A stretch of 64,000 nt of DNA, taken from the IMG/VR virus record IMGVR_UViG_2687453424_000001. One strand, written 5' to 3'. Both the position numbers and the translations under genes were made by a program. Numbering within the stretch: the stretch's first letter is position 1; every line of letters begins with the position of its first letter. This document shows, in pieces, positions 3,084 to 46,878 of this stretch. This stretch comes from a virus. Its lineage: Duplodnaviria; Heunggongvirae; Uroviricota; Caudoviricetes. The notes under the pieces were generated by a model, which saw only the letters and a program-made list of their open reading frames with translations, searched no databases and was not told the origin of the DNA.

Positions 3084-3311
3084 CTTTAGTGACTTGACCT
3101 TATCTGGCAAGGTATAAGTTAAAACAACCTTCTGGTCTTGCTCAACAACATTAACTAACTGCAAGAAATTGGGATCAGCTTGCTTTAATTCGTTTAGCTC
3201 ACTTAATTGGTCGTAGCGAAATTGATTGTGATTGAGTTCGAGGATTAGCTTGTTCCCTTGTCGTTTGAACGTGCCAACCTCAATATTCAATAGCTGGTTT
3301 GCTTTACTCAT
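3084..3311 (-). CDS. hypothetical protein, 5' part only (76 codons, runs into the gap); downstream gene of the conjugation operon
   Basis: Minus-strand ATG at 3309-3311 overlaps the VirB4 stop (ATGAGTAA arrangement). Translation MSKANQLLNIEVGTFKRQGNKL... stays open to the contig edge at 3084. Low-GC bacterial codon usage. No family recognised. Confidence 0.5.
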
Positions 3312-5167
3312 TTAAAGTCCCTCCTTCTTCTTCGGTGGTGGTCAAGGCGTCAATTTCACTCGGTGTCAGGATCACACGCTTTTGATAATCCGGTTGTCCG
3401 GCGGTCTCACGGTTGTATTTTTCTTGGTAAGCTTCTGGGTCGATTAACCGCAATTCTTCTTCGGTTAGCTCCACCCGCATAAAAGCGCGTTGGCTACCAT
3501 AGATCATCAGGGCTTCACCTTGTCTACGGCGTTCTAGTAACTTCTTTTCCTTATCCGAGAACGTCATTCTTAACTTAGTAATGACATCATCAACACCTTT
3601 ACCATCAAGGCCAAAGAATACCTTGGTATAGGAGTTCCCAATAATGGCTTCACCAATGTTCTGCCCAGTATCTGTCGTTCCTTCAATCACATCTTGAATT
3701 TGTTGCGTTCCGGCAATCGCCCCGGCATTGTACTTTCTAAAGCGCTTATAGGCTTGATGGAAAAAGGTAGCGGCCGCTTTATGCAAGGTCAGAAAATGAA
3801 ATTCGTCAACAAACAATTTCTTGCGGCTATGCCGATCTTTCGTGATTTCGTCCCACAAATATTGAAAAGTATTCAGGTAGGCTGCTGATTGGACTTCCTG
3901 TTCACTTTGCAGCGGTTTTAAATCAAAGGAAATGATCTTGCCCTTTAAGTTGACGTTGGTGTGTCCGTCAAATAGGCTGTTAGAACCATGGGTATAACTG
4001 CCTAAGATGTAGTAGAAGTCTTTAACCCGACTGAATTTGTCAGCGTCCTTATCAGCTAGTTTTTCCAACTCGTCATAGACATTGGATAAGGTCGGCCACT
4101 GATCGTCTTTAATCTCTTTTAAGCGGCTATATTTCAAAACGCCACTGTTGACATAAGCCTGTTTAACAACATCATCAAGGATTGCCAATTCAACTTGGGT
4201 AATCCCGGTTTTGAGGACTTCAAAGAATCCCTTTAGTCGTTGAATTTTATCTTTGACTAGTAAATCAAGGTTTGTGACCGCTTCATCAGCGCTTAGGATT
4301 TCTTCGGAAAAGATTTGTAGCGGGTTAATTTTGTACTTCGCATTGGAAGTTAAATGCAAGACTGCCCCACCCAAGGCTTCAACAATCTTGGTATATTCAT
4401 TTTCTGGATCAATAATGTAGAGTTGATAGTCTTGAATGGCATAGCGTAGGATTTTTTGGATCATATAGGTGGTCTTGCCGACCCCACTGGTACCAATAAC
4501 CACCATGTTTTGGTTCAACGTTTTGTTGCGATCCAACATATCCACGGCAATTAAGCTGTTGGTGTCTTTGTTAACCCCTTCAATATCGCTTCTAGGCTTT
4601 AAGTCCAAAATCTCGGCGTCATCAAAAGGAAACATGCTGCTGGCAACTTCGGTATTACTTTCCTTATACGTATAATCGCCTAATAGATTTTCGTTGATTG
4701 GCATAGTAGACCAAAAACTTTGAAAAGTTGCTTTAACGGGCACTAAGGGCTTCATTTGTAGCTTAATCAGTGTATTTTTAACGTTGTCAGTTAAATCGTC
4801 TAGTTCCGCTAAACTGTTAGCCCGCAGATAAACCAGCATATGTTGGTACACAAATGTGGTAGAATTATCGAGGTATTTATCTAGTTGCATATTGGCCGAA
4901 TCAATATAATTTTGCAGAATTTTCTTTTTATACGGGTCGAACGTATTTAGCTTCTGCGCTTCCTTATTTTGGATCGTCTTTTTGTAATAGGTAATCATTG
5001 AATTGTTACTGGCGCTGTCGATATATTGCACAATATCGATAACGCCTTTTTTGCGCTTTAATTCTGATAGCCAGTTGCCGTGAACTCGCTTGGGATAGTC
5101 AGCAATCGCTAACACCCGGATAAAGTTCTCCCCCGACTGCACGTAGGTGGGGTACTGTTCCCAACTG
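3304..5167 (-). CDS. VirB4-family type IV secretion / conjugal transfer ATPase (TrsE/TraE/PrgJ-like), 5'-truncated
   Basis: Bacterial part of minus-strand ORF 3304..5364. Walker A GTSGVGKT is encoded at 4471-4494; Walker B-like LFVDEFHF at about 3795-3818; AGTQ motif follows. Stop TAA at 3304-3306. The N-terminal ~65 residues of the listed ORF are read from avian repeat DNA and are not part of the protein. Confidence 0.8.
3319..3324 (-). promoter_or_regulatory. Shine-Dalgarno-like GGAGGG, 7 nt upstream of the downstream-gene ATG
   Basis: Minus strand reads GGAGGGACTTTAAATG. Confidence 0.45.
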
Positions 5168-5172
5168 CAGGT
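5165..5172. other. chimeric junction between bacterial DNA and avian repeat DNA, at a CTGCAG (PstI) site
   Basis: Homology to the avian repeat copy at 45160-45365 runs up to about 5171. Beyond it the sequence is low-GC bacterial coding DNA. No N gap at the junction. Confidence 0.7.
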
Positions 5173-6130
5173 AGTCTCATGTCCCTTTGATGGCTGGAAC
5201 CCCAAGAGGTGTAGCATGGAGACAAGAAAGATGAGGAGGGTGGATGCCCCCTGCATGAAGGGGAAACTTGGATTTCTGGAGGTCCTCTGTGTGACAGGGA
5301 ACAGGTGGGGTTGGCTTTTGTGACTGAGGATCAGAGGAGTGGATAAGAGGGACATTGTGCTCACAGTTACAAACTACTTGCTCAGGGAGGGGAAACAGAA
5401 AAGGTCTTTTGTCAGCACCTGAGGAAGCCTCCAGGCTAATGAGCAGGTACCTTGCAGGTAATTGCCCTGGTGGTCCCTGGCCATGCAAAGCAACAGGGTG
5501 CAACAATGTGGAGGGTCTTGGCACAACCGGTTAACACAGGTGCAGGGCGGGCCAACAAGGGTGATGCTCCCCTGGAAAAGCTGCTCAGGATGTGATCATC
5601 AGTGTCAGCCTTGGCTGTCATGAGCATGCAATAGTGGGGACTCAGATGCTAAAGGGCATGAGGAAGGCCAGCAGCAGAGAACAGACTCTGGACTTACTTG
5701 GGGACAATTCCAGGAGTTTCCATGGGAAGCGGCTCTGATGGTGAAGGAGCATGAGCAAGTCTGCTAACGATCCCTGAGCCTGGAATACCTGGAGGGCTTC
5801 CAAGGTCCACCAGGGCTTTTGCCACCTTTCTGAATGCCGGTCAGGCTCCTGAGGGCTTTAGCACAGTTGCAGAGCACCAGCGCATTCTGGAATGGCCGGT
5901 GTTATTCCTCAGCCTTGCCAGAGCCTGCTGAGGCCTCTGCCTCCATCTAGAATGCTTGGGGAGATTCTGCAGGATTGGTGCAGACTGCCAGGGCCCTGCC
6001 ATGTTCTGCAATGTTGGGTGTCCTTCCAAGCGTGCTGGTGCAAGCACTTCCCTGGGCATTGCTGGAACCCTCCAGTTTCCCAGCAGGGCCTTCGCCGCCT
6101 TCCAGTAGCCTCGATGTGCTGCCGCGGTGC
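5173..6130. repeat. avian satellite-like repeat (family A), inverted relative to the copy at 44291-45400
   Basis: Translations of the two regions are near-identical on opposite strands (e.g. LEASSGADKRPFL.PLPEQVVCNCEHNVPL; GRTPNI.E.GRALAVCTNPAE.PQAF). Degenerate ~60 bp internal periodicity. Confidence 0.6.
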
Positions 6131-6139
6131 TGTGGTTTA

Positions 6140-6317
6140 AGTCCAGTCAGTAATTCAGAACCACGTAGTCGCTCGCTCACTCTCCCCCCTTCCTCCCCCC
6201 CACTCCCAGAGGGATGGGAAGGAGAATCGAAAAAATATAACTCGCACAGGTTGAGATAAGAACAGTCAAGTAACTAAGGAATAGCACAAACCACAGCCGC
6301 TACCACCAGTAATAATA
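6140..6317 (+). mobile_element. partial LTR (family L), 5' portion, truncated by CR1
   Basis: Same sequence pattern as the start of the LTR at 31296-31836 (gtggtttaa..cagtcag ... ctaccaccagtaataatag). Confidence 0.5.
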
Positions 6318-6376
6318 GTAGAATCATAGAATCGTAGAATCATAGAATAGTTAGGATGGGAAAGGACCTTAAGACC
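6318..6376 (-). mobile_element. CR1 LINE 3' terminus (ATTCTRTG-type octamer repeats), continuing into the gap
   Basis: Plus strand reads tagaatcatagaatcgtagaatcatagaat then ttaggatgggaaaggacc; minus-strand translation GLKVLSHPNYSMIL matches the CR1 3' end seen at 60430-60476. Confidence 0.7.
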
Positions 6377-8004: not shown

Positions 8005-9515
8005 GTCCTCGTGGCCCTCCTCTGGACTTGTTCCAACAGTTCCATGTCCTTTTTATGTTGAGGACACCAGAACTGCACACAATACCCAAGTGAGGTCTCA
8101 CGAGAGCAGAGTAGTGGGGCAGGATCACCTCCTTCGACCTGCTGCTCACGCTCATTTTGATGCAGCCCAGGATACGGTTGCTTTCTGGGCTGCGAGCACA
8201 CACTGCAGCTGGCTCATGTTCATTTTTCATCGACCAACACCCCCAAGTCTTTCTCCACAGGGCTGCTCTGGATCTCTGCTATCCCCAACCTGTAGCTGTG
8301 CCTGGGATTGCTCCGACCCAGGTGTAGGACCTTGCACTTGGCATGGTTAAACTTCATCAGGTTGGCATCAGCCCACCTCACAAGCGTGTCGAGGTCCCTC
8401 TGCATGGCATCCCTTCCCTCCGGCGTATCAACCGAACCACACAGCTTGGTGTCATCGGCAAACTTGCTGAGGGCGCACTCAATCCCACTGTCCATGTCAG
8501 CGACAAAGATGTTGAACAAGACCGATCCCAACACTGATCCCTGAGGAACACCACTTGTTACCGGTCTCCAGCTGGACATCGAGCCATTGACCACAACTCC
8601 TTGCGTGCGGCCATCCAGCCAGATCTTTATCCACCGAGTGGTCCACCCATCAAATTGATGTCTCTCCAATTAGAGACAAGGATGTCATGTCGGACAGTGT
8701 CGAACGCTTTGCACAAGTCCAGGTAGATGACCTCAGCTGCTCTACCCCTATCCATCAGTTCCATAGCCCCATCATAGAAGGCCACCAAATTGATCAGGCA
8801 GGATTTCCCCTTTGTGAAGCCATGCTGGCTGTCACCAACCACCTCCTTGTTTTTCATGTGCCTTAGCATGCCTTGCAGGAGAATCTGCTCCAAGAGTTTG
8901 CCAGGCACAGAGGTGAGACTGACTGCTCTGTAATTCCCCTGATCATCCATTTTCCCCTTCTTGAAAACAGGGGCTATATTTCCCTTTTCCCAGTCATCGG
9001 GAGCTTCACCTGACTGCCATGATCTTTCAAATATGATGGACTGTGTAAACTTCATTTGCCAGCTCCTTCAGGACCCGTAGATGGATTTCATTAGGTCCCA
9101 TGGACATGTGCACGTTCAGGTTCTTAAGATGGTCTTGAACCAGATCCTGTCTTACAGTGGGCCCAAGGTCTTCATTCTCACAGTCCCTGCTTCTGCCTTC
9201 CAAGACTTGGGTGATGTGGTCAGAGCCTTTGCCAGTGAAGACTGAGGCAAAGAAGTAATTCAGAACCTCAGCCTTCTCCAAATCCAGGGTAGCCAGTTCT
9301 CCTGCTAGTTTCTGGAGGGGGCCTATGTTGTCCCTAGTCTGTCTTTTATTTGCTACATACCTATAGAATCCCTTCCTGTTATCTTTCACATCCCTAGCCA
9401 AGTTTAATTCTAACTGGGCCTTAGCTTTCCTAACCTGGTCCATAGCTTCTCAGACAACATCCCTGTATTCTTCCCAGGCTGCCTTCCACCATCCCCTAAA
9501 GTTCAAATGCTTTTT
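8005..9515 (-). mobile_element. CR1 LINE ORF2 fragment (reverse transcriptase domain and C-terminal region), degenerate
   Basis: Minus-strand ORFs 9027..9443, 8627..9055 and 8220..8669 carry RT motifs ([29 protein letters not shown]; [13 protein letters not shown]; KCKVLHLG). 8005-8201 encodes [27 protein letters not shown]. Frameshifts between the pieces. Confidence 0.8.
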
Positions 9516-16788: not shown

Positions 16789-17180
16789 AGAATACAGCTG
16801 AACAATGGACATGTGAGCAATCCCAGCTGTTTGGTTTTAGCCAAACTCTGACTTAAGTTGCAAGGTCTGAATTCAAGTTACTCAGGCTGTGAGGCCTAGC
16901 CTTAGGTTACTAAAGGACAGTTACGTGCAGTAGAATAAGGAACTTGGCATTTGCTCAAGGCTAACAAGATGTGGGAGCGGGATGGTGAAACTGCAAGTTA
17001 TGTGAGAAAGGTAGCGAATGGATAATTTTAGCTAGCTTGTTATCTGCTTCAAAATGTGTGGACTGCACTTCTGAGCCAATCACAATCTATATTGGTTACG
17101 TCTAGCCAATAGCAGTTCAATTTCTGGAAGCATATACTGTAGCTACTGTAGCTACTGTGCTACGACAGTGGTCTGTGGAC
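16789..17180 (+). mobile_element. possible LTR-like segment between env and pol remnants
   Basis: Position after the env stop; CCAAT-box-like motifs (ccaatcacaatc, agccaatagc). Boundaries not defined. Confidence 0.25.
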
Positions 17181-17244
17181 CCCATTGGCCATTGAGACTA
17201 CGATGGAATGTGCGCAAGTCCTTTTTCAGGCTTTGTCTGAGCGA

Positions 17245-17660
17245 GCTGCTGAAATTTGCCCAAATCACTGTAATAGTCATTCGCACATCCCTGGACTCCT
17301 GACTGAAGGTAGCAATAGTGCAGACCGTGTTGCACAAGGTCTGCCAGTTCCTGACTGTTGTGCTCCAGTTTTTATGCGCTATTTACATGTCACGGTTGAT
17401 ACCTGTAGCAGTGTCATTTTGGCTACAGCACAACGCAAGCAAGACGCCAAAGCAGCCATTTTGCATTGGCGCGAGGTCATGGCGATTTTGGGAGTCCCTA
17501 GCCAGATCAAGACCGACAATGGTCCAGCATATTCAAGTCAACTGGTGGCTTCATTTTTATGACAGTGGGGCATTGAGCATAAGACCGGTTGTCCTTATAA
17601 CAGCACTGGCCCAGCTATCGTCGAACGCGCGCACCGGACTCTGAAAGCTCGCCTCGTGTG
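17245..17660 (+). mobile_element. ERV pol remnant: RNase H C-terminus and integrase catalytic core, frameshifted
   Basis: ORF 17185..17562 has GNSADRVA (RNase H end), HVTVDTCSS and IKTDNGPAYSS (the two Asp motifs). The next frame at 17563-17640 gives [28 protein letters not shown] (the Glu motif). Confidence 0.65.
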
Positions 17661-25275: not shown

Positions 25276-28200
25276 NNNNNNNNNNNNNNNNNNNNNNNNN
25301 NNNNNNNNNNNNNNNNNNNNNNNNNNNNNNNNNNNNNNNNNNNNNNNNNNNNNNNNNNNNNNNNNNNNNNNNNNNNNNNNNNNNNNNNNNNNNNNNNNNN
25401 NNNNNNNNNNNNNNNNNNNNNNNNNNNNNNNNNNNNNNNNNNNNNNNNNNNNNNNNNNNNNNNNNNNNNNNNNNNNNNNNNNNNNNNNNNNNNNNNNNNN
25501 NNNNNNNNNNNNNNNNNNNNNNNNNNNNNNNNNNNNNNNNNNNNNNNNNNNNNNNNNNNNNNNNNNNNNNNNNNNNNNNNNNNNNNNNNNNNNNNNNNNN
25601 NNNNNNNNNNNNNNNNNNNNNNNNNNNNNNNNNNNNNNNNNNNNNNNNNNNNNNNNNNNNNNNNNNNNNNNNNNNNNNNNNNNNNNNNNNNNNNNNNNNN
25701 NNNNNNNNNNNNNNNNNNNNNNNNNNNNNNNNNNNNNNNNNNNNNNNNNNNNNNNNNNNNNNNNNNNNNNNNNNNNNNNNNNNNNNNNNNNNNNNNNNNN
25801 NNNNNNNNNNNNNNNNNNNNNNNNNNNNNNNNNNNNNNNNNNNNNNNNNNNNNNNNNNNNNNNNNNNNNNNNNNNNNNNNNNNNNNNNNNNNNNNNNNNN
25901 NNNNNNNNNNNNNNNNNNNNNNNNNNNNNNNNNNNNNNNNNNNNNNNNNNNNNNNNNNNNNNNNNNNNNNNNNNNNNNNNNNNNNNNNNNNNNNNNNNNN
26001 NNNNNNNNNNNNNNNNNNNNNNNNNNNNNNNNNNNNNNNNNNNNNNNNNNNNNNNNNNNNNNNNNNNNNNNNNNNNNNNNNNNNNNNNNNNNNNNNNNNN
26101 NNNNNNNNNNNNNNNNNNNNNNNNNNNNNNNNNNNNNNNNNNNNNNNNNNNNNNNNNNNNNNNNNNNNNNNNNNNNNNNNNNNNNNNNNNNNNNNNNNNN
26201 NNNNNNNNNNNNNNNNNNNNNNNNNNNNNNNNNNNNNNNNNNNNNNNNNNNNNNNNNNNNNNNNNNNNNNNNNNNNNNNNNNNNNNNNNNNNNNNNNNNN
26301 NNNNNNNNNNNNNNNNNNNNNNNNNNNNNNNNNNNNNNNNNNNNNNNNNNNNNNNNNNNNNNNNNNNNNNNNNNNNNNNNNNNNNNNNNNNNNNNNNNNN
26401 NNNNNNNNNNNNNNNNNNNNNNNNNNNNNNNNNNNNNNNNNNNNNNNNNNNNNNNNNNNNNNNNNNNNNNNNNNNNNNNNNNNNNNNNNNNNNNNNNNNN
26501 NNNNNNNNNNNNNNNNNNNNNNNNNNNNNNNNNNNNNNNNNNNNNNNNNNNNNNNNNNNNNNNNNNNNNNNNNNNNNNNNNNNNNNNNNNNNNNNNNNNN
26601 NNNNNNNNNNNNNNNNNNNNNNNNNNNNNNNNNNNNNNNNNNNNNNNNNNNNNNNNNNNNNNNNNNNNNNNNNNNNNNNNNNNNNNNNNNNNNNNNNNNN
26701 NNNNNNNNNNNNNNNNNNNNNNNNNNNNNNNNNNNNNNNNNNNNNNNNNNNNNNNNNNNNNNNNNNNNNNNNNNNNNNNNNNNNNNNNNNNNNNNNNNNN
26801 NNNNNNNNNNNNNNNNNNNNNNNNNNNNNNNNNNNNNNNNNNNNNNNNNNNNNNNNNNNNNNNNNNNNNNNNNNNNNNNNNNNNNNNNNNNNNNNNNNNN
26901 NNNNNNNNNNNNNNNNNNNNNNNNNNNNNNNNNNNNNNNNNNNNNNNNNNNNNNNNNNNNNNNNNNNNNNNNNNNNNNNNNNNNNNNNNNNNNNNNNNNN
27001 NNNNNNNNNNNNNNNNNNNNNNNNNNNNNNNNNNNNNNNNNNNNNNNNNNNNNNNNNNNNNNNNNNNNNNNNNNNNNNNNNNNNNNNNNNNNNNNNNNNN
27101 NNNNNNNNNNNNNNNNNNNNNNNNNNNNNNNNNNNNNNNNNNNNNNNNNNNNNNNNNNNNNNNNNNNNNNNNNNNNNNNNNNNNNNNNNNNNNNNNNNNN
27201 NNNNNNNNNNNNNNNNNNNNNNNNNNNNNNNNNNNNNNNNNNNNNNNNNNNNNNNNNNNNNNNNNNNNNNNNNNNNNNNNNNNNNNNNNNNNNNNNNNNN
27301 NNNNNNNNNNNNNNNNNNNNNNNNNNNNNNNNNNNNNNNNNNNNNNNNNNNNNNNNNNNNNNNNNNNNNNNNNNNNNNNNNNNNNNNNNNNNNNNNNNNN
27401 NNNNNNNNNNNNNNNNNNNNNNNNNNNNNNNNNNNNNNNNNNNNNNNNNNNNNNNNNNNNNNNNNNNNNNNNNNNNNNNNNNNNNNNNNNNNNNNNNNNN
27501 NNNNNNNNNNNNNNNNNNNNNNNNNNNNNNNNNNNNNNNNNNNNNNNNNNNNNNNNNNNNNNNNNNNNNNNNNNNNNNNNNNNNNNNNNNNNNNNNNNNN
27601 NNNNNNNNNNNNNNNNNNNNNNNNNNNNNNNNNNNNNNNNNNNNNNNNNNNNNNNNNNNNNNNNNNNNNNNNNNNNNNNNNNNNNNNNNNNNNNNNNNNN
27701 NNNNNNNNNNNNNNNNNNNNNNNNNNNNNNNNNNNNNNNNNNNNNNNNNNNNNNNNNNNNNNNNNNNNNNNNNNNNNNNNNNNNNNNNNNNNNNNNNNNN
27801 NNNNNNNNNNNNNNNNNNNNNNNNNNNNNNNNNNNNNNNNNNNNNNNNNNNNNNNNNNNNNNNNNNNNNNNNNNNNNNNNNNNNNNNNNNNNNNNNNNNN
27901 NNNNNNNNNNNNNNNNNNNNNNNNNNNNNNNNNNNNNNNNNNNNNNNNNNNNNNNNNNNNNNNNNNNNNNNNNNNNNNNNNNNNNNNNNNNNNNNNNNNN
28001 NNNNNNNNNNNNNNNNNNNNNNNNNNNNNNNNNNNNNNNNNNNNNNNNNNNNNNNNNNNNNNNNNNNNNNNNNNNNNNNNNNNNNNNNNNNNNNNNNNNN
28101 NNNNNNNNNNNNNNNNNNNNNNNNNNNNNNNNNNNNNNNNNNNNNNNNNNNNNNNNNNNNNNNNNNNNNNNNNNNNNNNNNNNNNNNNNNNNNNNNNNNN

Positions 28201-29433
28201 NNNNNNNNNNNNNNNNNNNNNNNNNNNNNNNNNNNNNNNNNNNNNNNNNNNNNNNNNNNNNNNNNNNNNNNNNNNNNNNNNNNNNNNNNNNNNNNNNNNN
28301 NNNNNNNNNNNNNNNNNNNNNNNNNNNNNNNNNNNNNNNNNNNNNNNNNNNNNNNNNNNNNNNNNNNNNNNNNNNNNNNNNNNNNNNNNNNNNNNNNNNN
28401 NNNNNNNNNNNNNNNNNNNNNNNNNNNNNNNNNNNNNNNNNNNNNNNNNNNNNNNNNNNNNNNNNNNNNNNNNNNNNNNNNNNNNNNNNNNNNNNNNNNN
28501 NNNNNNNNNNNNNNNNNNNNNNNNNNNNNNNNNNNNNNNNNNNNNNNNNNNNNNNNNNNNNNNNNNNNNNNNNNNNNNNNNNNNNNNNNNNNNNNNNNNN
28601 NNNNNNNNNNNNNNNNNNNNNNNNNNNNNNNNNNNNNNNNNNNNNNNNNNNNNNNNNNNNNNNNNNNNNNNNNNNNNNNNNNNNNNNNNNNNNNNNNNNN
28701 NNNNNNNNNNNNNNNNNNNNNNNNNNNNNNNNNNNNNNNNNNNNNNNNNNNNNNNNNNNNNNNNNNNNNNNNNNNNNNNNNNNNNNNNNNNNNNNNNNNN
28801 NNNNNNNNNNNNNNNNNNNNNNNNNNNNNNNNNNNNNNNNNNNNNNNNNNNNNNNNNNNNNNNNNNNNNNNNNNNNNNNNNNNNNNNNNNNNNNNNNNNN
28901 NNNNNNNNNNNNNNNNNNNNNNNNNNNNNNNNNNNNNNNNNNNNNNNNNNNNNNNNNNNNNNNNNNNNNNNNNNNNNNNNNNNNNNNNNNNNNNNNNNNN
29001 NNNNNNNNNNNNNNNNNNNNNNNNNNNNNNNNNNNNNNNNNNNNNNNNNNNNNNNNNNNNNNNNNNNNNNNNNNNNNNNNNNNNNNNNNNNNNNNNNNNN
29101 NNNNNNNNNNNNNNNNNNNNNNNNNNNNNNNNNNNNNNNNNNNNNNNNNNNNNNNNNNNNNNNNNNNNNNNNNNNNNNNNNNNNNNNNNNNNNNNNNNNN
29201 NNNNNNNNNNNNNNNNNNNNNNNNNNNNNNNNNNNNNNNNNNNNNNNNNNNNNNNNNNNNNNNNNNNNNNNNNNNNNNNNNNNNNNNNNNNNNNNNNNNN
29301 NNNNNNNNNNNNNNNNNNNNNNNNNNNNNNNNNNNNNNNNNNNNNNNNNNNNNNNNNNNNNNNNNNNNNNNNNNNNNNNNNNNNNNNNNNNNNNNNNNNN
29401 NNNNNNNNNNNNNNNNNNNNNNNNNNNNNNNNN
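25276..29433. other. assembly gap (N run)
   Basis: uninterrupted run of N. Confidence 0.99.
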
Positions 29434-30047
29434 ACCCCAAATCAGGCACCCTCCCACTCTGGGTCTGCCCCCCCCAGTCCCTGATATGGGGGGGCGTGGG
29501 GGTGGTGGGGGTGTTGGAATGCCACATGGAGTGTGGTATGGGGACAACAAGGAGCGTTTTGGTACTGGTGGCTTTGGGGGGAGCAGCTTTGTGGGGGCAT
29601 CCCCATTTGGGGTGGGGGTGCTTGGAGGGGCACTTCCAGGATTTGGTTCCCTGGGTTCATTTGGGAGGGCCCGAGGTGATGGTGGGGTGCAGGTCACTTT
29701 TGGGCTGCCCCAGGATCCCCATTTGTGGGTCCTGTCTGCTCTTGTGGTGCTTCAGGAAGATTTGGGGTACCCCAGGATTTTGGGTGGCACCGCAACTGGT
29801 TTGGGTGCCTCCAGGGCCCTTGGGGGGGGCAGCGTGGGTTTGGGGTGCCCCTTATTTGGGGTGCCCCCAGTGGTTTTGAAGTCCCAGAGCACCTTAGGGG
29901 ACCCCCAGGGCGGTGCTGGGGGAACCTTTCTTTTTAGGACACCCCTTTTTTAGTGAATTTGTGCCACTGAGCTGAGCCGGGGCAGCTTTGGAGCTGTGGG
30001 CTTTGGGTTTGGGGAGATTTTGGGGGATCCTGGGAGGATTTTGGGGA
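29434..30047. repeat. G-rich degenerate tandem repeat (about 40 bp period; tttggggtgcccc / ggattttgggg motifs)
   Basis: Repeated motifs seen directly; the ORFs here are Gly/Trp/Pro-rich translation artefacts. Confidence 0.45.
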
Positions 30048-30597
30048 TTCAGGCTGGTCCCCTTTCCTGGTTTAGCAGTAGCAGTCATTTTTTCTACTGG
30101 TGCAGTGCTGTGTTTTGACTTTCGACCTGGGAATAATACTGATAAAGCTGATGTTTTCAGTTGTGGGTCAGAATGTTTACCCTGACCAAGGACTTTGTGA
30201 GTCTCATGCTGTGCCAGGGAGGAGGAGAAGCCGGGAGGAAGCAGAGACAGGACACCTGACCCAAACTAGCCAAAGAGGTATTCCATACCACAGCACGTCA
30301 TGCCCAGGATGTAGAATGGAGAGGGCCCGGAAGGGCTAGATGACTGCGGGGTGAGGTACCGGTTGGTGAGCGATTGTATTCTCTTCCTTGTTATTTCCTT
30401 TATCATTATTACTATTAGTGGTAGCAGTAGTGATTTGTGTTATACCTTAGTTATTAAACTGTTCTTATCTCAACCCGTGGGAGTTGCATTCTTTCGATTC
30501 TCCTCCCCATCCCTCCAGGAGCGGAGGGAAGAAAGGTGTGGGGGGGAAGTAGACTGCGTGGTTCTGATTTATGGCCTGGGCTTAAACCACAACATCC
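30048..30597 (-). mobile_element. LTR (family L), copy 1, minus orientation
   Basis: Reverse complement matches the copy at 31296-31836 end to end; ORF 30100..30339 and ORF 31589..31786 (minus) give near-identical peptides (HA.PGRR.SREEA.TGHLTQ.SQRGIPYHSTSCPG). Confidence 0.65.
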
Positions 30598-31295
30598 CCA
30601 AAATGCCTCTGGGTGGCTCAGTTATTTGGGGGATTCCTCATCTCCTGCAAATAGGGGTCCATCAATCCCAGGGCAGCTGAATCTCCTTGGATGCCCTAGG
30701 GAGCCCCGTTGCCATAAATTGGAGGAATTTTGGGGTTTGGAGTCATTTGGGGGTTCAAGGAACGTTTGGAGGTTTGGCAGGGGTCCCCAAAACTCGCTGT
30801 AGGAGGCACATTATATTGGGAGATCTCCCATATACCGAAAACGGGGGATACCTGGGTCTCAGGTCACATTGGGTGAGCAATGATCCCTCAGAGTGGTGAT
30901 GTGTTGAGGGGAAGAGTTTGGGGCTCAGAGGGGATTTGGGCATTGGGGGAGATCCTCAAAGCTCCCGGGGTGAAGAGCAACGGAACGGCCAGGTACAAGT
31001 CCACTGCCACGTCCATCCCGCCCTGCTGCCAGAGCCCGCTCCTATTACAAGTCATTACCATAAAGTACAATGAAACAAGAACCTTAGCCCAAGGCCCACA
31101 CTTGGTAAACACTAACACAGCAAATACTGGCTGTAAGTAAGGTACAACATGCTGAAACTGTGACATCAAAACCAACAACTTTGAGAGCCAATAAATCAGC
31201 ATTGTGATGAGTGCTTTTCACAAATACGGTTAGACACACTCCGGTCAGATCTGTCGTTATCTCAACCTTTCATGCCCCACGTTGGGCACCAAAAA

Positions 31296-31836
31296 AGAAC
31301 TGTCGTGGTTTAAACCCAGTCAGCCATCAATCAGCCACACAGTCTCTCCCCCCACTTCTTTCCCTCCCCCTGCTCCCGGAGGGATAGGAAGGAGAATTGA
31401 AAGAATGTAACTCCCACAGGTTGAGGTAAGAACAGTTTAGCAACTAAGGTATAACACAAATCACTACTGCTACCACCAATAATAATAGTGATAAAGGAAA
31501 TAACAAGGGAAGAGAATACAACACCTCACCACCCGCCAACCGATAACTCACCCCCACCCAGCAGTGATCCAGCCCTTCCGGGTAACTCTCAGTTACCTCC
31601 CGGGCATGACGTGCTGTGGTATGGAATACCTCTCTGGCTAGGTTGGGTCAGGTGTCCTGTCCCTGCTTCCTCCCGGCTTCCCCTCCTCCCTGGCAGAGCA
31701 TGAGACTCAGAAAGTCCTTGGTCAGACCAAACATCGGTGTTATCAGCTCTGTTCCCAGGCTGAAAGTCAAAAACACAGCGCTGCACCAGGTACTAAGGAG
31801 AAAAAATGACTGCTACTTCTGAACCAGGACAGCACC
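31296..31836 (+). mobile_element. LTR (family L), copy 2, plus orientation
   Basis: Starts tgtcgtggtttaaaccc and ends ..gaaccaggaca; partial copies at 6140-6317 and about 39480-39980. Confidence 0.65.
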
Positions 31837-31839
31837 AAG

Positions 31840-32280
31840 TGACACCAAGTGACCCTCCAGACCTACAACTGCCCCCCAAAGTGACACCCCAGATCCACAA
31901 CTGCCTCCCCAGTTACCTGAAGGAGATTCCTCAGACCCACATCCGCCCCAAGTGACCCCACAGTGACCCCACATACCCACAACTGCCCCCCAAGTGACCC
32001 ACCCACACCCACAACTGCCCCCAGTGACCCCAAAGAGACCTCTCAGACCCACAGCTGATGCCCAAATGATACCCCAGACCTACAACTGCCATCCAAGTGA
32101 CCCTCCAGACCCACAAGTGCCCCCCACGTGACCCCAAAATAACTCCTCAGACCCACAACTGACCTACAAGTGATCCCAAGTGACCCCCATTACCTACAAC
32201 TGCCCCCAAGGTGACCACCAAGTGACCCCCCAGACCCACAACTGCCCCCCCAGTGACCTCAAAGAGACCGCTCAGAACAT
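31840..32280. repeat. tandem repeat, degenerate ~41 bp unit (cagacccacaactgccccccaagtgacccc), about 11 copies
   Basis: Periodic repetition seen directly; minus-strand ORF 31813..32052 is its translation. Confidence 0.7.
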
Positions 32281-33077
32281 GCTGCTCAGGCAGTAGACTT
32301 GCAGCTGCTTTCCTATGTTAGGAAATTGAAATGACTTTTGCCTAGCTAGAAGGATGGGATTATTTAGTTTGCTTCTTGGATCAGTTTGAAGTCAAGATCC
32401 TCACCTCTTTGTATACAGAGACAGAGGTTTGCACTCTGCAGAAGTGAAGATTCTGATGAGGTGAGGTGGTAAAAGGCAGAAGCTCCCTCCTGAATAGACT
32501 TAATGCTCTGTAAACACCAATGTATTGAAACAGAAATGGAATCATAGGAAGGACTCTAAGACACTCAGATTTATTCCACAAGAAGGCTTCTTGTGCAAAC
32601 ACGGCTCAGAATAAATCTGAACTCCAGCCTTTAAGTGCTACTTCCAAAAGAAACAGGGGAAAAATGGTCAAGAAGATTTTTAGAATTATTTCTTTTATGT
32701 ATCTCGAGCTAATCAAAAGATCCAGATTGTTGCTGAGATGTTAAAACCAATGAACAGATCAGCTGTGTAATCAAAAGAGGTGCACGCACGACTCAAGAGA
32801 GTTTCTCCTTCTTGCCTTTTTGTGCCAGGAGGCTGGTAATACCTTCTGACAGCCAAAGATCTCCGTGTCCTGACATACTGTCACTGGAGCTGTCTTTATT
32901 TCCAGCCAAACAAGGGGCAGGACAACTGCACCCAGTGAACAGTAACCAATAAAAACTCTCCTTTGAATTAATGCCCTTTTGCACTTCAGGCCTGCCCTGA
33001 AATGTGAAGGCTCTTTATTTTGACCTTAGCCTGGTAAGCAGATGGGAAGTCACCCAAGTGTTTGCTCACATACCTAA

Positions 33078-33428
33078 AATAGGGAAATGGGGCTTCTTTT
33101 GGTTAGTGCCTGTGTCACATCAGGCTGTTATGTTTTCATAGTGGGGTCCTATGTGCAGATCTTCAGGGCCGTGCTGAGGATCCCCTCTGAGCAGGGACCC
33201 CACAAAGCCTTTCCCACGTGCCTCCCTCACCTGGACGTGCTCTCCCTGTTTGTCAGCACTGGTACCTTTGCCTACCTAAAGCCCCTCTCCGTCTCCTCTG
33301 CCTCCCAGGATCTGGCTATGGTGGTGCTGTACTCAGTGTTGCCTCCAGCAGGAAACCCCCTCATCTGCAGCCTGAGAAACCAGGAGCTCAAGGATGCTCT
33401 GAGGAAGCTGGTGACCAGATGCGTTTGA
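33078..33428 (+). pseudogene. olfactory receptor fragment (C-terminal TM5-TM7 third only); truncated, probably pseudogene
   Basis: ORF 33087..33428: LRIPSEQGPHKAFPTCLPHLDVLSLF ... NPLICSLRNQELKDALRKL fits the olfactory-receptor C-terminal pattern (LRIPS..KAFSTC..HL.VV.LFY..NPLIYSLRN). In-frame TAA at 33075-33077 and no upstream TM1-TM4 in any frame. Confidence 0.65.
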
Positions 33429-33773
33429 GCAGCCATACACTGCTTGCTTTACCCTGGAAACGGTTTCCATTGTAGATCATGACAGACCACGTCTGTCTTT
33501 GCTGCTTTACAGTTCTTTTCCTTTTTCCACTTGAGAAGTTGCTGTCTTCAAAAAAGGTCAGTTTTCATCACCTCCTACTTGTCTGACCCACAGACTTTGT
33601 ATCAATAGAGGTCCCTTTTTGTATGTAAGCACAATAAACCATCCTGCAGCAACTTCTCTGTGCTATGTACTCACATGGCAGGAATGAAAGGGAATGAAAT
33701 CAGCTTTCTGGCTGCTCCAGCTCTGGGATGGCTGCTCTGTGCCTGGAGCAGAAGAGCTCTTGGAGAGCCTGGC

Positions 33774-38838: not shown

Positions 38839-38949
38839 TTTTCCAACTCAGACTGAATCAAGCCTTGAACAATTTGCTCTGACCCTGTTCCTGATGGGTT
38901 AGACTTGAGAACTCCTGGGGTCCTTTCCAACCTCTGCTCTCTTATGATC

Positions 38950-39345
38950 CAACAATGATGGGTTTATGAAGAGTCACAAAAATGCTCCAAGGGCTGGAGC
39001 ACATCTCTGATGAAGACAGGCTGAGAGAGCTGGGGATGTTCAGCCTGGAGAAGACAAGGTTCCAGGGATACATCTTAGCAAGCTGCCCATTTCTAAACAC
39101 GGCCTACAAGAAATCTGGACAGGGGCTTTTTACAAGTGTGTGCAATTACAGGAGAAGGGGAGATGGCTTTGAGCTGAAAGAGGGGGATTTAGATCAGACA
39201 TTAGGAAGGAATTCTTCCCTGTGACAGTGGTGGGACACTGGCACAGGGTGCCCAGAGAAGCTGTGGCTGCCCCGTCCCCGGCAATGTTCAAGGCAAGGTT
39301 GGACACAGGGGCTTGGAGCAACCTGCTCTAGTGGACCACCATAAA
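38950..39345 (+). mobile_element. CR1 LINE 3' portion (ORF2 C-terminus), plus orientation, lacking the terminal octamer repeats
   Basis: ORF 38982..39224 GLEHISDEDRLRELGMFSLEK and, in the following frame, VVGHWHRVPREAVAAPSPAMFKARLD. Confidence 0.65.
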
Positions 39346-46399: not shown

Positions 46400-46878
46400 A
46401 ACTAACTATGGTGAATCCATTCCATCAGCAAGGCTAAAGGAGATCTCAGCCTGTCCTGTCCTGGCTGTCCAAATGATGGGACAAGAAACAGGCTGCCCAC
46501 AGAAGTGGTTCTGTCACCATCCCTGGCGGTCTTTAAAAGACGTGGAGATGTGGCACCTGTTGACATGGGTGGACTTGACAGTGTTTGGTTAGTGGTTAGA
46601 GTCAACCTTAAGGGTCTTTTTGAAATTTATGATTCTGGAATTCTGAGAAACTTTATTTACACCAAACTCCATCTCTCAGCAGAGCAATGACACTGCAGGC
46701 AGGCAGTGTGTCTGCCAGCTGAGGGAAGGAACATCAGTGCTTGCTTCAGGCTGTTTCCCATGGTGTTCCCCTGGAGCCCCAGGGAGCCCTGGAGGGAGCC
46801 CAGCGGGACAGAGGCAGAGCCACCTTGGGCTGGGCCTCTGCTGCTGAGCTGGGCATGGCTCCTGGGATGCAGACAGAT
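46400..46878. repeat. segment B of the inverted-repeat pair (partner 23230-23700); includes a CR1 3' end at about 46400-46650 (plus orientation)
   Basis: Reverse complement of 23230-23700; ends ..ttatgattctggaattctgag. Confidence 0.6.

What the first reader, a model, noticed from the sequence alone, without database searches (positions are those of the whole stretch)
33078..33428. Orphan olfactory-receptor C-terminal fragment
This is the only host protein-coding homology in the window: the last ~113 residues of an olfactory receptor (TM5 to the C-terminus) with the conserved NPLI.SLRN and KAF.TC patterns, but with atypical substitutions. It starts right after an in-frame stop, with no TM1-TM4 upstream. 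Likely a truncated pseudogene from an olfactory-receptor cluster.
Basis: partly seen in the sequence, partly recalled or inferred. Interest (0 to 1): 0.4.

Follow-up and report, generated by a model that had tools for sequence, protein, structure and literature searches.

The report
Dead olfactory-receptor gene fragment in bird
This is the broken-off tail end (last ~120 codons plus 3' untranslated region) of a bird family-14 smell-receptor gene that also carries a stop codon and damaged key motifs, which is an ordinary relic of the kind that litters avian olfactory-receptor clusters.

Summary
Window 33063-33428 (+) is homologous to avian family-14 (gamma-c) olfactory receptors: Pfam 7tm_4 E=4.9e-12, 1386 avian OR14 protein hits, and 84% DNA identity to two full-length OR14 genes of the parrot Pezoporus. 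It covers the end of ECL2, TM5-TM7 and helix 8.

- The gene's own 3'UTR with a conserved AATAAA (33633-38) follows, and the downstream flank is collinear with the parrot OR14 unit.
- Upstream of 33063 similarity drops to 3/23 bases. No TM1-TM4 sequence exists in any assembled part of the window, by tblastn, six-frame Pfam and Smith-Waterman against shuffles.

The NPxxY tyrosine is Cys and KAFSTC reads KAFPTC.

The best reading is a non-functional, 5'-truncated OR14 pseudogene fragment. The main rival is an assembly mis-join. 62% of the window is N, and another contig of the same window fuses Lactiplantibacillus plasmid DNA to bird DNA. The kind is already known and interest is low.

The parts
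33063..33428 (+). Coding remnant of an OR14 (gamma-c) olfactory receptor. It spans 121 codons plus the stop, equivalent to residues ~187-307 of a 311-aa gene: end of ECL2, TM5, ICL3, TM6, ECL3, TM7 and helix 8.
   Evidence: tblastn places residues 187-304 of a full-length OR14 at 33063-33416. blastn aligns 33063-33415 to pigeon L001 6214-6566 at 83%. Identity to the Pezoporus copy L004b is 83.7% with no indels (83.9% with one 2-column terminal gap against L004a). Pfam 7tm_4 also matches, as do PDB ORs at residues 197-306.
33075..33077 (+). In-frame TAA nonsense codon inside the homologous stretch. It aligns to TAC/TAT (Tyr) of CSHSYLRE in intact genes.
   Evidence: Alignment A1 columns 36-38 and the window-private C>A change at 33077.
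33087..33428 (+). Residual open reading frame of 113 codons. Its ATG aligns to a Val/Leu codon of intact genes, so it is not an ancestral start codon.
   Evidence: ORF list and the private G>A change at 33087, V>M.
33213..33215 (+). CCC (Pro) replaces the Ser of the TM6 motif KAFSTC.
   Evidence: Ser is present in 98.3% of 119 homologues and none has Pro.
33366..33368 (+). TGC (Cys) replaces the Tyr of the TM7 NPxxY motif, giving NPLIC.
   Evidence: Tyr is invariant in 119 of 119 homologues.
33429..33660 (+). The gene's own 3' untranslated region, with the polyadenylation signal AATAAA at 33633-33638.
   Evidence: 82% identical to the 3' flank of both Pezoporus OR14 copies and 77% to kea, with 4 indel events. 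AATAAA is conserved in all three parrot sequences. The flank is not alignable in pigeon or sparrow.
33661..33773 (+). Downstream flank beyond the poly(A) site, running to the contig end. It is collinear with the parrot OR14 unit.
   Evidence: 92-94% identical to Pezoporus L004. The next contig, 38840-39303, matches L004 11617-12078 in the same order and orientation.
33062..33063 (.). 5' breakpoint of the remnant, where the switch from non-OR to OR sequence occurs.
   Evidence: The same first aligned base appears in comparisons with pigeon L001, both Pezoporus L004 copies and L006. Kea L002 cannot confirm this independently, because its OR sequence starts at its own scaffold end about 7 bp upstream of the equivalent position. 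The 23 bases before the breakpoint match at 3/23.
32277..33062 (.). Unique non-coding DNA abutting the remnant. It has no similarity to OR genes, to the OR14 units of other birds, or to anything else in the window.
   Evidence: No blastn hit at word size 7 and E<0.01 in L001, L002, L004, L006, L007 or the rest of the window. GC is 42% and CpG observed/expected is 0.14, which is vertebrate-like. There is no match in the plasmid or phage collections and no Pfam domain in six frames.
31832..32276 (.). C-rich minisatellite with units of about 31-32 bp, lying further upstream. This is context, not part of the gene.
   Evidence: Tandem Repeats Finder and self-blast.
31301..31834 (+). LTR-like repeat with TG...CA ends. 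An inverted copy lies at 30062-30594. This is context only.
   Evidence: Self-blast gives 80% over 561 bp. Copies occur in the kea and Pezoporus loci. The sequence was read.

Best explanation
The feature is a non-functional relic of a family-14 (avian gamma-c clade) olfactory-receptor gene in a bird genome, probably a parrot or close relative. The last 121 codons, the 3'UTR and the downstream neighbourhood are preserved. The first ~186 codons (N-terminus to most of ECL2, including TM1-TM4 and the MAYDRY motif) and the normal upstream flank are replaced at 33062/33063 by unrelated unique DNA.

The most likely origin is a rearrangement inside an OR14 cluster with one breakpoint inside the coding exon. 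This could be a partial duplication, a deletion or another non-homologous join, as expected under birth-and-death evolution of OR arrays.

The remnant does nothing. It lacks a start codon, four of seven helices and its promoter side. It carries a Tyr-to-stop mutation five codons in and has lost the NPxxY tyrosine.

Shown: OR14 identity, the exact extent, the nonsense codon, the motif damage, the 3'UTR, downstream collinearity, and absence of the 5' part from assembled sequence. Inferred: that the breakpoint exists in the living genome, and how it arose.
For: Identity: Pfam 7tm_4 at 46.7 bits, 1386 avian OR14 hits and PDB OR hits.

Extent: the alignment starts at 33063 in comparisons with pigeon and three Pezoporus gene copies. 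Kea L002 starts at its own scaffold end near the same point.

Loss of the 5' part: six-frame Pfam of contig 29434-33773 gives a single hit. tblastn of a 310-aa OR14 over the whole window gives a single hit. Smith-Waterman is no better than shuffles.

In Pezoporus, the markers that lie 1.3-2 kb upstream of the OR are absent upstream of this fragment, while the downstream markers are present in order.

Disablement: TAA at 33075-77 aligns to Tyr. There are 3 deviations at 52 columns that are at least 95% conserved, including the invariant NPxxY Tyr. The mean for homologues is 0.82, and only 6 of 119 have 3 or more.

The bases just after the breakpoint carry many private changes. They would therefore differ from the other OR14 sequences compared here, although no paralogues from this genome were available. 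This argues against a simple repeat-mediated assembly join at that point.

Literature: naturally incomplete OR 'fragments' not at contig edges made up 12.6% of OR regions in a seabird genome (bioRxiv 10.1101/723924). Birds carry 111-221 OR pseudogenes, mostly gamma-c (PMC2758906).
Against: The substitution pattern does not by itself show relaxed constraint. Private changes are 26 non-synonymous to 14 synonymous, not different from the kea and pigeon lineages (Fisher p=0.42). Pairwise omega is 0.43-0.53, close to the family-wide 0.44-0.45 reported for functional gamma-c genes (PMC2758906).

The 363 coding bases have no indel against Pezoporus copy b, whereas the 232-bp 3'UTR has four. The reading frame was therefore protected until recently. 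That fits either a recent truncation or a gene that is complete in the real genome.

The assembly is unreliable. It is 62% N, and contig 3084-6376 joins bacterial plasmid DNA to bird repeats without a gap. No reads are available to validate the 33062/33063 junction.
Confidence: 0.62

Rival explanations
1. Assembly artefact. The 33062/33063 junction is a mis-join made during contig building or gap closing in a collapsed, highly repetitive OR14 region. In the real genome the fragment would continue upstream into the rest of an OR14 gene, which would still be a pseudogene if the TAA is real.
For: 62% of the window is N, in ten short contigs. Contig 3084-6376 is demonstrably chimeric, with 3084-5167 95% identical to Lactiplantibacillus plantarum plasmids and fused to avian repeats. 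Collinearity suggests that other OR14 copies sit in gaps, i.e. OR genes failed to assemble here. The kea scaffold L002, from a similar short-read project, has internal duplicated OR pieces. The frame is intact with no indels, and omega is typical of the family.
Against: The sequence on both sides of the junction shows no repeat to mediate a join. The upstream 786 bp matches nothing else in the window or in five other loci. The first 25 bases of the remnant carry about 7 private substitutions. The fragment is at least 16% diverged from every OR14 sequence compared.
Confidence: 0.25
2. Gene split by a large insertion. A full-length OR14 (pseudo)gene was interrupted at codon ~186 by inserted DNA, namely the unique segment, the minisatellite and the LTR-like elements. 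Its 5' half would lie further upstream, hidden in the gap 25276-29433 or beyond.
For: LTR-like elements and a minisatellite lie 0.8-3 kb upstream. The contig ends at 29434 against a 4.2-kb gap, so a displaced 5' half cannot be excluded.
Against: No 5' OR sequence occurs anywhere in the 24.5 kb of assembled window. The DNA abutting the breakpoint shows no transposon terminus, no coding domain and no repeat copies elsewhere. No target-site duplication could be identified. The Pezoporus upstream markers X and Y are not found in the right orientation upstream.
Confidence: 0.1
3. A retained, expressed short ORF. The 113-codon frame (TM5-TM7) would be transcribed, using the conserved 3'UTR and poly(A) signal, and would have some function as a protein or RNA.
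For: The frame is open for 113 codons with no indels, although the adjacent UTR has four. Omega is below 1. AATAAA is conserved.
Against: The ATG is a private V>M change, not a conserved start. The invariant NPxxY Tyr and the KAFSTC Ser are lost. No gene with this product is on record anywhere in the collection. Omega equals the family background, so it reflects history as part of an intact gene. A three-helix piece of a GPCR has no known autonomous function (established knowledge).
Confidence: 0.03

Closest known systems
Avian olfactory receptor family 14 (group gamma-c clade), e.g. 'olfactory receptor 14J1-like' / '14C36-like' genes of Pezoporus flaviventris, Nestor notabilis and Patagioenas fasciata
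   Same: 70-79% amino-acid and 82-84% nucleotide identity over TM5 to the C-terminus. Family motifs are shared (SYVQIFRAVLRIPSEQG, KAF.TCLPHL, PPA.NPLI.SLRNQELKDA). The C-terminal tail KLVTRCV is identical to the Pezoporus copies. In parrots the 3'UTR, the AATAAA signal and the downstream flank are also shared.
   Different: Codons 1-186 are missing (TM1-TM4, MAYDRY). There is a nonsense codon at the fifth retained codon. NPLIY reads NPLIC, KAFSTC reads KAFPTC and GCFVF reads GCYVF.
OR 'gene fragments' and pseudogenes as classified in avian OR surveys (Sin et al. 2019 preprint 10.1101/723924; Steiger et al. 2009 PMC2758906)
   Same: It meets their operational definitions. The coding region is incomplete and its 5' end is not at a contig or scaffold edge, being 3.6 kb inside the contig, so it counts as a 'fragment'. 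It has an internal stop and fewer than 7 TM helices, so it counts as a 'pseudogene'.
   Different: Nothing substantive. It is one more example.
The 195-aa 'olfactory receptor 14J1-like' database models that dominate the hit list
   Same: They are also N-terminally short OR14 products.
   Different: Those models start at the Met of MAYDRY. In the one case examined, the underlying full-length gene has an upstream stop: pigeon L001 has a complete 311-codon gene with a stop at codon 51. The Pezoporus models lie on full-length OR14 copies. Their 5' halves are present in the DNA. Here the 5' half is absent.
Processed (retrotransposed) pseudogene
   Same: It is 5'-truncated and retains the 3'UTR and poly(A) signal.
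   Different: There is no poly(A) tract after the cleavage region. Homology to the Pezoporus genomic locus continues at 92-94% for another 110 bp beyond the poly(A) site and into the next contig. The copy is therefore genomic, not made from mRNA.

Membership tests
Olfactory receptor (Pfam PF13853 7tm_4; class II OR) | Significant match to the family profile above the curated threshold | tested here: met
   46.7 bits against a cut-off of 27, E=4.9e-12, profile positions 180-277 of 280. PDB ORs match at E=1.6e-21.
Avian OR family 14 / gamma-c clade | Closest relatives are OR14 (gamma-c) genes rather than other OR families | tested here: met
   All 120 listed hits are avian and all named ones are OR14-type (14J1, 14C36, 14A16, 14I1), at 66-79% identity. 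No phylogeny was built.
Intact OR gene (Steiger et al. 2009 criteria) | At least 250 aa, a start Met and all seven TM helices | tested here: not met
   Only residues ~187-307 are present. Nothing from TM1-TM4 occurs in the assembled window.
Intact OR gene (Steiger et al. 2009 criteria) | No interrupting stop codon or frameshift | tested here: not met
   TAA at 33075-33077 aligns to a Tyr codon. There are no frameshifts.
Intact OR gene / class A GPCR | Conserved functional motifs: MAYDRY (TM3), KAFSTC (TM6), NPxxY (TM7) | tested here: not met
   The MAYDRY region is absent. KAFSTC reads KAFPTC (Ser 98% conserved). NPLIY reads NPLIC (Tyr 100% conserved in 119 homologues).
OR gene 'fragment' + 'pseudogene' (Sin et al. 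2019 classification) | Incomplete coding region not abutting a contig or scaffold edge, with an internal stop | tested here: met
   The 5' end of homology at 33063 lies 3.6 kb inside contig 29434-33773. The stop is at 33075. The definition is quoted.
Processed retrocopy | Poly(A) tail at the 3' end, loss of genomic flank homology beyond the transcript, target-site duplication | tested here: not met
   There is no A-run after 33660. The flank stays 92-94% identical to the Pezoporus genomic locus to the contig end, and the next contig is collinear.
Pseudogene evolving neutrally | dN/dS near 1 and indels in the former coding region | tested here: inconclusive
   Private changes are 26 non-synonymous to 14 synonymous, not different from controls (p=0.42). 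Pairwise omega is 0.43-0.53. There are no indels in 363 nt against Pezoporus copy b. This is compatible with recent inactivation.
Genuine genomic truncation (as opposed to mis-assembly) | Junction supported by spanning reads | not testable with these tools
   No reads and no second assembly of the species are available. The species itself is not identified.

The most novel reading that the evidence does not exclude
The 33063 boundary might reflect a preferred breakpoint in avian OR14 genes at the ECL2/TM5 border (around ...ILKLSCSHS...), producing 3' modules that are copied around the cluster. Several short contigs of other birds (kea, Manacus, Molothrus, Passerina) also begin within a few codons of this point. 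A further possibility is that the open 113-codon frame with its intact 3'UTR is transcribed. What I could check does not support either idea. The two contigs I fetched (kea L002, Manacus L003) simply start at their own ends, and comparable pile-ups of start positions occur at other sites for annotation reasons.
Probability: 0.03. Interest if true: 0.35.

Novelty: already known. Interest (0 to 1): 0.07.

Why it matters
It matters little biologically. Truncated and nonsense-bearing OR14 copies are an expected by-product of birth-and-death evolution of the largest avian OR family.

Its practical value is for annotation. The locus should be labelled an OR14 pseudogene fragment spanning 33063-33660, not a gene. 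The scaffold should be treated as an unreliable, partly contaminated representation of an OR14 cluster in which the intact copies probably sit in the gaps.

OR counts taken from such assemblies will under-count intact genes and may over-count 'fragments'.

Tried and rejected
1. Splice-acceptor idea. The AG at 33081-82 made me consider that the fragment could be a terminal exon. I rejected this because homology to single-exon OR genes runs continuously across that AG from 33063.

2. A structurally short OR14 subfamily. Nearly all top hits are about 195 aa, which suggested this. I rejected it. In pigeon L001 the 195-aa model is the tail of a full 311-codon gene with a stop at codon 51, and both Pezoporus copies are full length.

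3. Shared breakpoint with kea. Kea L002 aligns from the same base, but only because its scaffold starts there, with a duplicated 94-bp end.

4. Retrocopy. Rejected: there is no poly(A) tract, and genomic flank homology continues.

5. Bacterial or phage origin of the 786 bp upstream, prompted by the plasmid contamination in contig 1. There is no match in plasmids or phages, and CpG observed/expected of 0.14 is vertebrate-like.

6. Transposon identity of the upstream 786 bp. No copies occur in the window or in five avian loci totalling about 146 kb, and there is no Pfam domain. No avian repeat library was available, so this remains open.

7. Exact-product look-up of the 113-aa ORF. It is not on record.

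8. dN/dS and lineage-specific N:S counts as a test of relaxed constraint. The result was uninformative.

9. Species identification. It reached only 'closer to parrots than to pigeon or sparrow'. The 3' flank and unit markers align at 82-94% to Pezoporus, the 3'UTR also aligns to kea, and neither aligns to pigeon or Zonotrichia.

Full report
**What is there.** The window is a badly fragmented vertebrate scaffold. 39,510 of its 64,000 bases are N, leaving ten contigs of 0.5-4.7 kb. The finding lies in contig 29434-33773. An ORF of 113 codons runs from 33087 to 33428 on the + strand. Its product matches Pfam 7tm_4 (olfactory receptor) at 46.7 bits against a curated cut-off of 27, E=4.9e-12, over profile positions 180-277 of 280. 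A search of the 5.8-billion-protein collection gave 1386 hits at E<=1e-3. All 120 listed are avian, the named ones are 'olfactory receptor 14J1/14C36/14A16/14I1-like', and identity is 66-79%. Solved class II OR structures match at residues ~197-306 of 312, i.e. TM5 to helix 8.

**Exact extent.** tblastn with 195-aa and full-length OR14 proteins, and blastn with genomic loci from pigeon (L001), kea (L002) and the parrot Pezoporus flaviventris (L004 with two copies, and L006), all begin the alignment at window base 33063. For kea this coincides with the start of its own scaffold.
- The multiple alignment shows TGC TCA CAT ACC TAA AAT AGG GAA ATG in the window against TGC TCA CAC TCC TAC CTC AGG GAA GTT in intact genes.
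- The 'in-frame stop just before the fragment' is a Tyr-to-stop mutation (33075-33077) inside the homologous stretch.
- The ORF's ATG is a private Val-to-Met change.
- The 23 bases before 33063 match intact genes at only 3/23.
- Downstream of the stop codon the homology continues through a 3'UTR that is 82% identical to Pezoporus and 77% to kea. Its AATAAA at 33633-33638 is conserved in all parrot sequences.
- Homology then continues at 92-94% to the contig end at 33773.
- The next contig (38840-39303) matches the segment that follows the OR in Pezoporus, in the same order and orientation.
- The fragment therefore sits in its native 3' neighbourhood within an OR14 unit. Pigeon and sparrow loci align only in the coding part, so the source species is probably a parrot or near relative. 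That is an inference.

**Is the 5' part anywhere?** It is not in assembled sequence.
- Six-frame translation of the whole contig against Pfam gives only the one 7tm_4 hit.
- tblastn with a reconstructed 310-aa OR14 over the whole window gives only residues 187-304. All other hits have E>1.
- Smith-Waterman alignment of the first 558 nt of an OR14 gene against 31000-33062, on both strands, scores 23 and 22. One hundred shuffles of the query give 23.0 +/- 2.2.
- In Pezoporus two markers lie 1.3 and 1.9 kb upstream of the equivalent position. They occur elsewhere in the window but not upstream of this fragment.
- What does lie upstream is 786 bp of unique, CpG-depleted non-coding DNA (32277-33062). 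It has GC 42% and CpG observed/expected 0.14, and no match to the rest of the window, five avian loci, plasmids or phages.
- Further upstream come a C-rich minisatellite (31832-32276) and an LTR-like element (31301-31834) with an inverted copy at 30062-30594.

**Is it dead?** Several features disable it.
- It lacks 186 codons, a start codon and the promoter side.
- It carries the nonsense codon at 33075-33077.
- Among 52 alignment columns that are at least 95% conserved in 119 homologues, it deviates at three. GCFVF reads GCYVF, KAFSTC reads KAFPTC, and the invariant Tyr of NPxxY is Cys. Homologues average 0.82 such deviations, and only 6 of 119 reach three.

The rate tests are not decisive, however.
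- Pairwise dN/dS is 0.43-0.53.
- Window-private changes are 26 non-synonymous to 14 synonymous, not different from the kea and pigeon lineages (p=0.42).
- Both values sit near the family-wide omega of 0.44-0.45 reported for gamma-c genes (PMC2758906).
- The 363 coding bases have no indel relative to Pezoporus copy b, while the 232-bp UTR has four.
- Together this means the sequence was part of a constrained gene for most of its divergence, and inactivation is comparatively recent.

**Explanations.** The best-supported reading is a genuine 5'-truncated OR14 pseudogene fragment, produced by a rearrangement with a breakpoint in the coding exon. This is the ordinary debris of birth-and-death evolution in OR arrays. 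Avian surveys report hundreds of OR pseudogenes per genome. One survey explicitly reports 12.6% of OR regions as 'fragments' that are naturally incomplete away from contig edges.

The serious rival is mis-assembly.
- The scaffold is mostly gaps.
- OR14 copies appear to have fallen into those gaps. Markers at 46676-46853 and 53538-53603 predict a whole OR14 gene inside gap 54074-59718.
- Contig 3084-6376 is demonstrably chimeric. Bases 3084-5167 are 95% identical to Lactiplantibacillus plantarum conjugative plasmids and encode a VirB4/TraG-type ATPase, yet they are joined without a gap to avian repeats.
- Against a mis-join at 33063, neither side shows a repeat that could mediate it, and the first 25 bases of the remnant carry about seven private substitutions.

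A split by a large insertion, with the 5' half hidden in the gap upstream of 29434, cannot be excluded but has no positive support. A functional short ORF is very unlikely. A processed retrocopy is rejected because there is no poly(A) tract and the genomic flank continues.

**Comparison with the known, and verdict.** The sequence is derived from, and closest to, avian OR family 14 (gamma-c). It fails the criteria for an intact member: seven helices, start codon, no stop, and the MAYDRY and NPxxY motifs. It meets the published operational definitions of an OR 'fragment' and 'pseudogene'. Nothing here is new in kind, and interest is low.

Noticed in passing
window 3084-5167 (ORF 3307-5373, minus strand): This stretch is bacterial DNA inside the bird scaffold. 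It is 95% identical over 2084 bp to Lactiplantibacillus plantarum conjugative plasmids (201 plasmid records match) and encodes a VirB4/TraG-like P-loop ATPase. It is fused without any N to avian repeat sequence (5372-5687, 6128-6319). The contig is therefore a contamination chimera, not horizontal transfer.
   Followed up: yes
window 54074-59718 (gap), with markers at 46676-46853 and 53538-53603: Collinearity with the Pezoporus OR14 unit (L004/L006 positions 8145-8322 and 8863-8927, which precede the OR by 1.3 and 0.7 kb) predicts that a complete OR14 gene is hidden in this gap. The intact, near-identical copies probably failed to assemble, and only the diverged fragment did.
   Followed up: partly
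window 30062-30594 (-) and 31301-31834 (+): An inverted pair of ~530-bp LTR-like elements with TG...CA ends, 80% identical to each other, separated by ~700 bp. Copies occur in the kea and Pezoporus OR loci and at window 6128-6319.
   Followed up: partly
window 31832-32276: A C-rich minisatellite with units of about 31-32 bp (consensus like GACCCACAACTGCCCCCAAGTGACCCC), absent from the Pezoporus, kea, pigeon and sparrow loci examined. A G-rich region at 29434-30060 on the other side of the LTR pair looks superficially like its mirror image but did not align.
   Followed up: partly
window 8223-9449 (-), 52532-52978 (-), 17152-17559 (+): Transposable-element coding remnants. There is a LINE (CR1-like, from my own recognition) reverse transcriptase (Pfam RVT_1, E=9e-25). 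There is also a retroviral integrase core whose score of 32.2 bits, E=1.3e-07, falls just under Pfam's 32.6-bit cut-off. No other host-gene domain was found among ORFs of at least 100 aa.
   Followed up: partly
window 33661-33769: The ~110 bp beyond the OR poly(A) site are 92-94% identical to Pezoporus. This is clearly more conserved than the OR coding remnant (84%) or its UTR (82%). It could be a conserved element or the edge of a younger repeat.
   Followed up: no
L001 5656-6588 (Patagioenas fasciata) and the hit list: Most top database hits are ~195-aa 'OR14J1-like' proteins that start at the Met of MAYDRY. In the case examined, the model is the downstream ORF of a full-length gene with a premature stop at codon 51. 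Many annotated avian OR14 'genes' of this length are probably pseudogenes.
   Followed up: partly
L002 1-700 (Nestor notabilis scaffold KK931953.1): The kea scaffold carries duplicated OR pieces (1-94 repeated at 95-188, and the TM6-to-C-terminus segment repeated after the first 3'UTR start). This yields a nonsensical 185-aa protein model (P0001) and is likely an assembly artefact of the collapsed OR14 family.
   Followed up: partly
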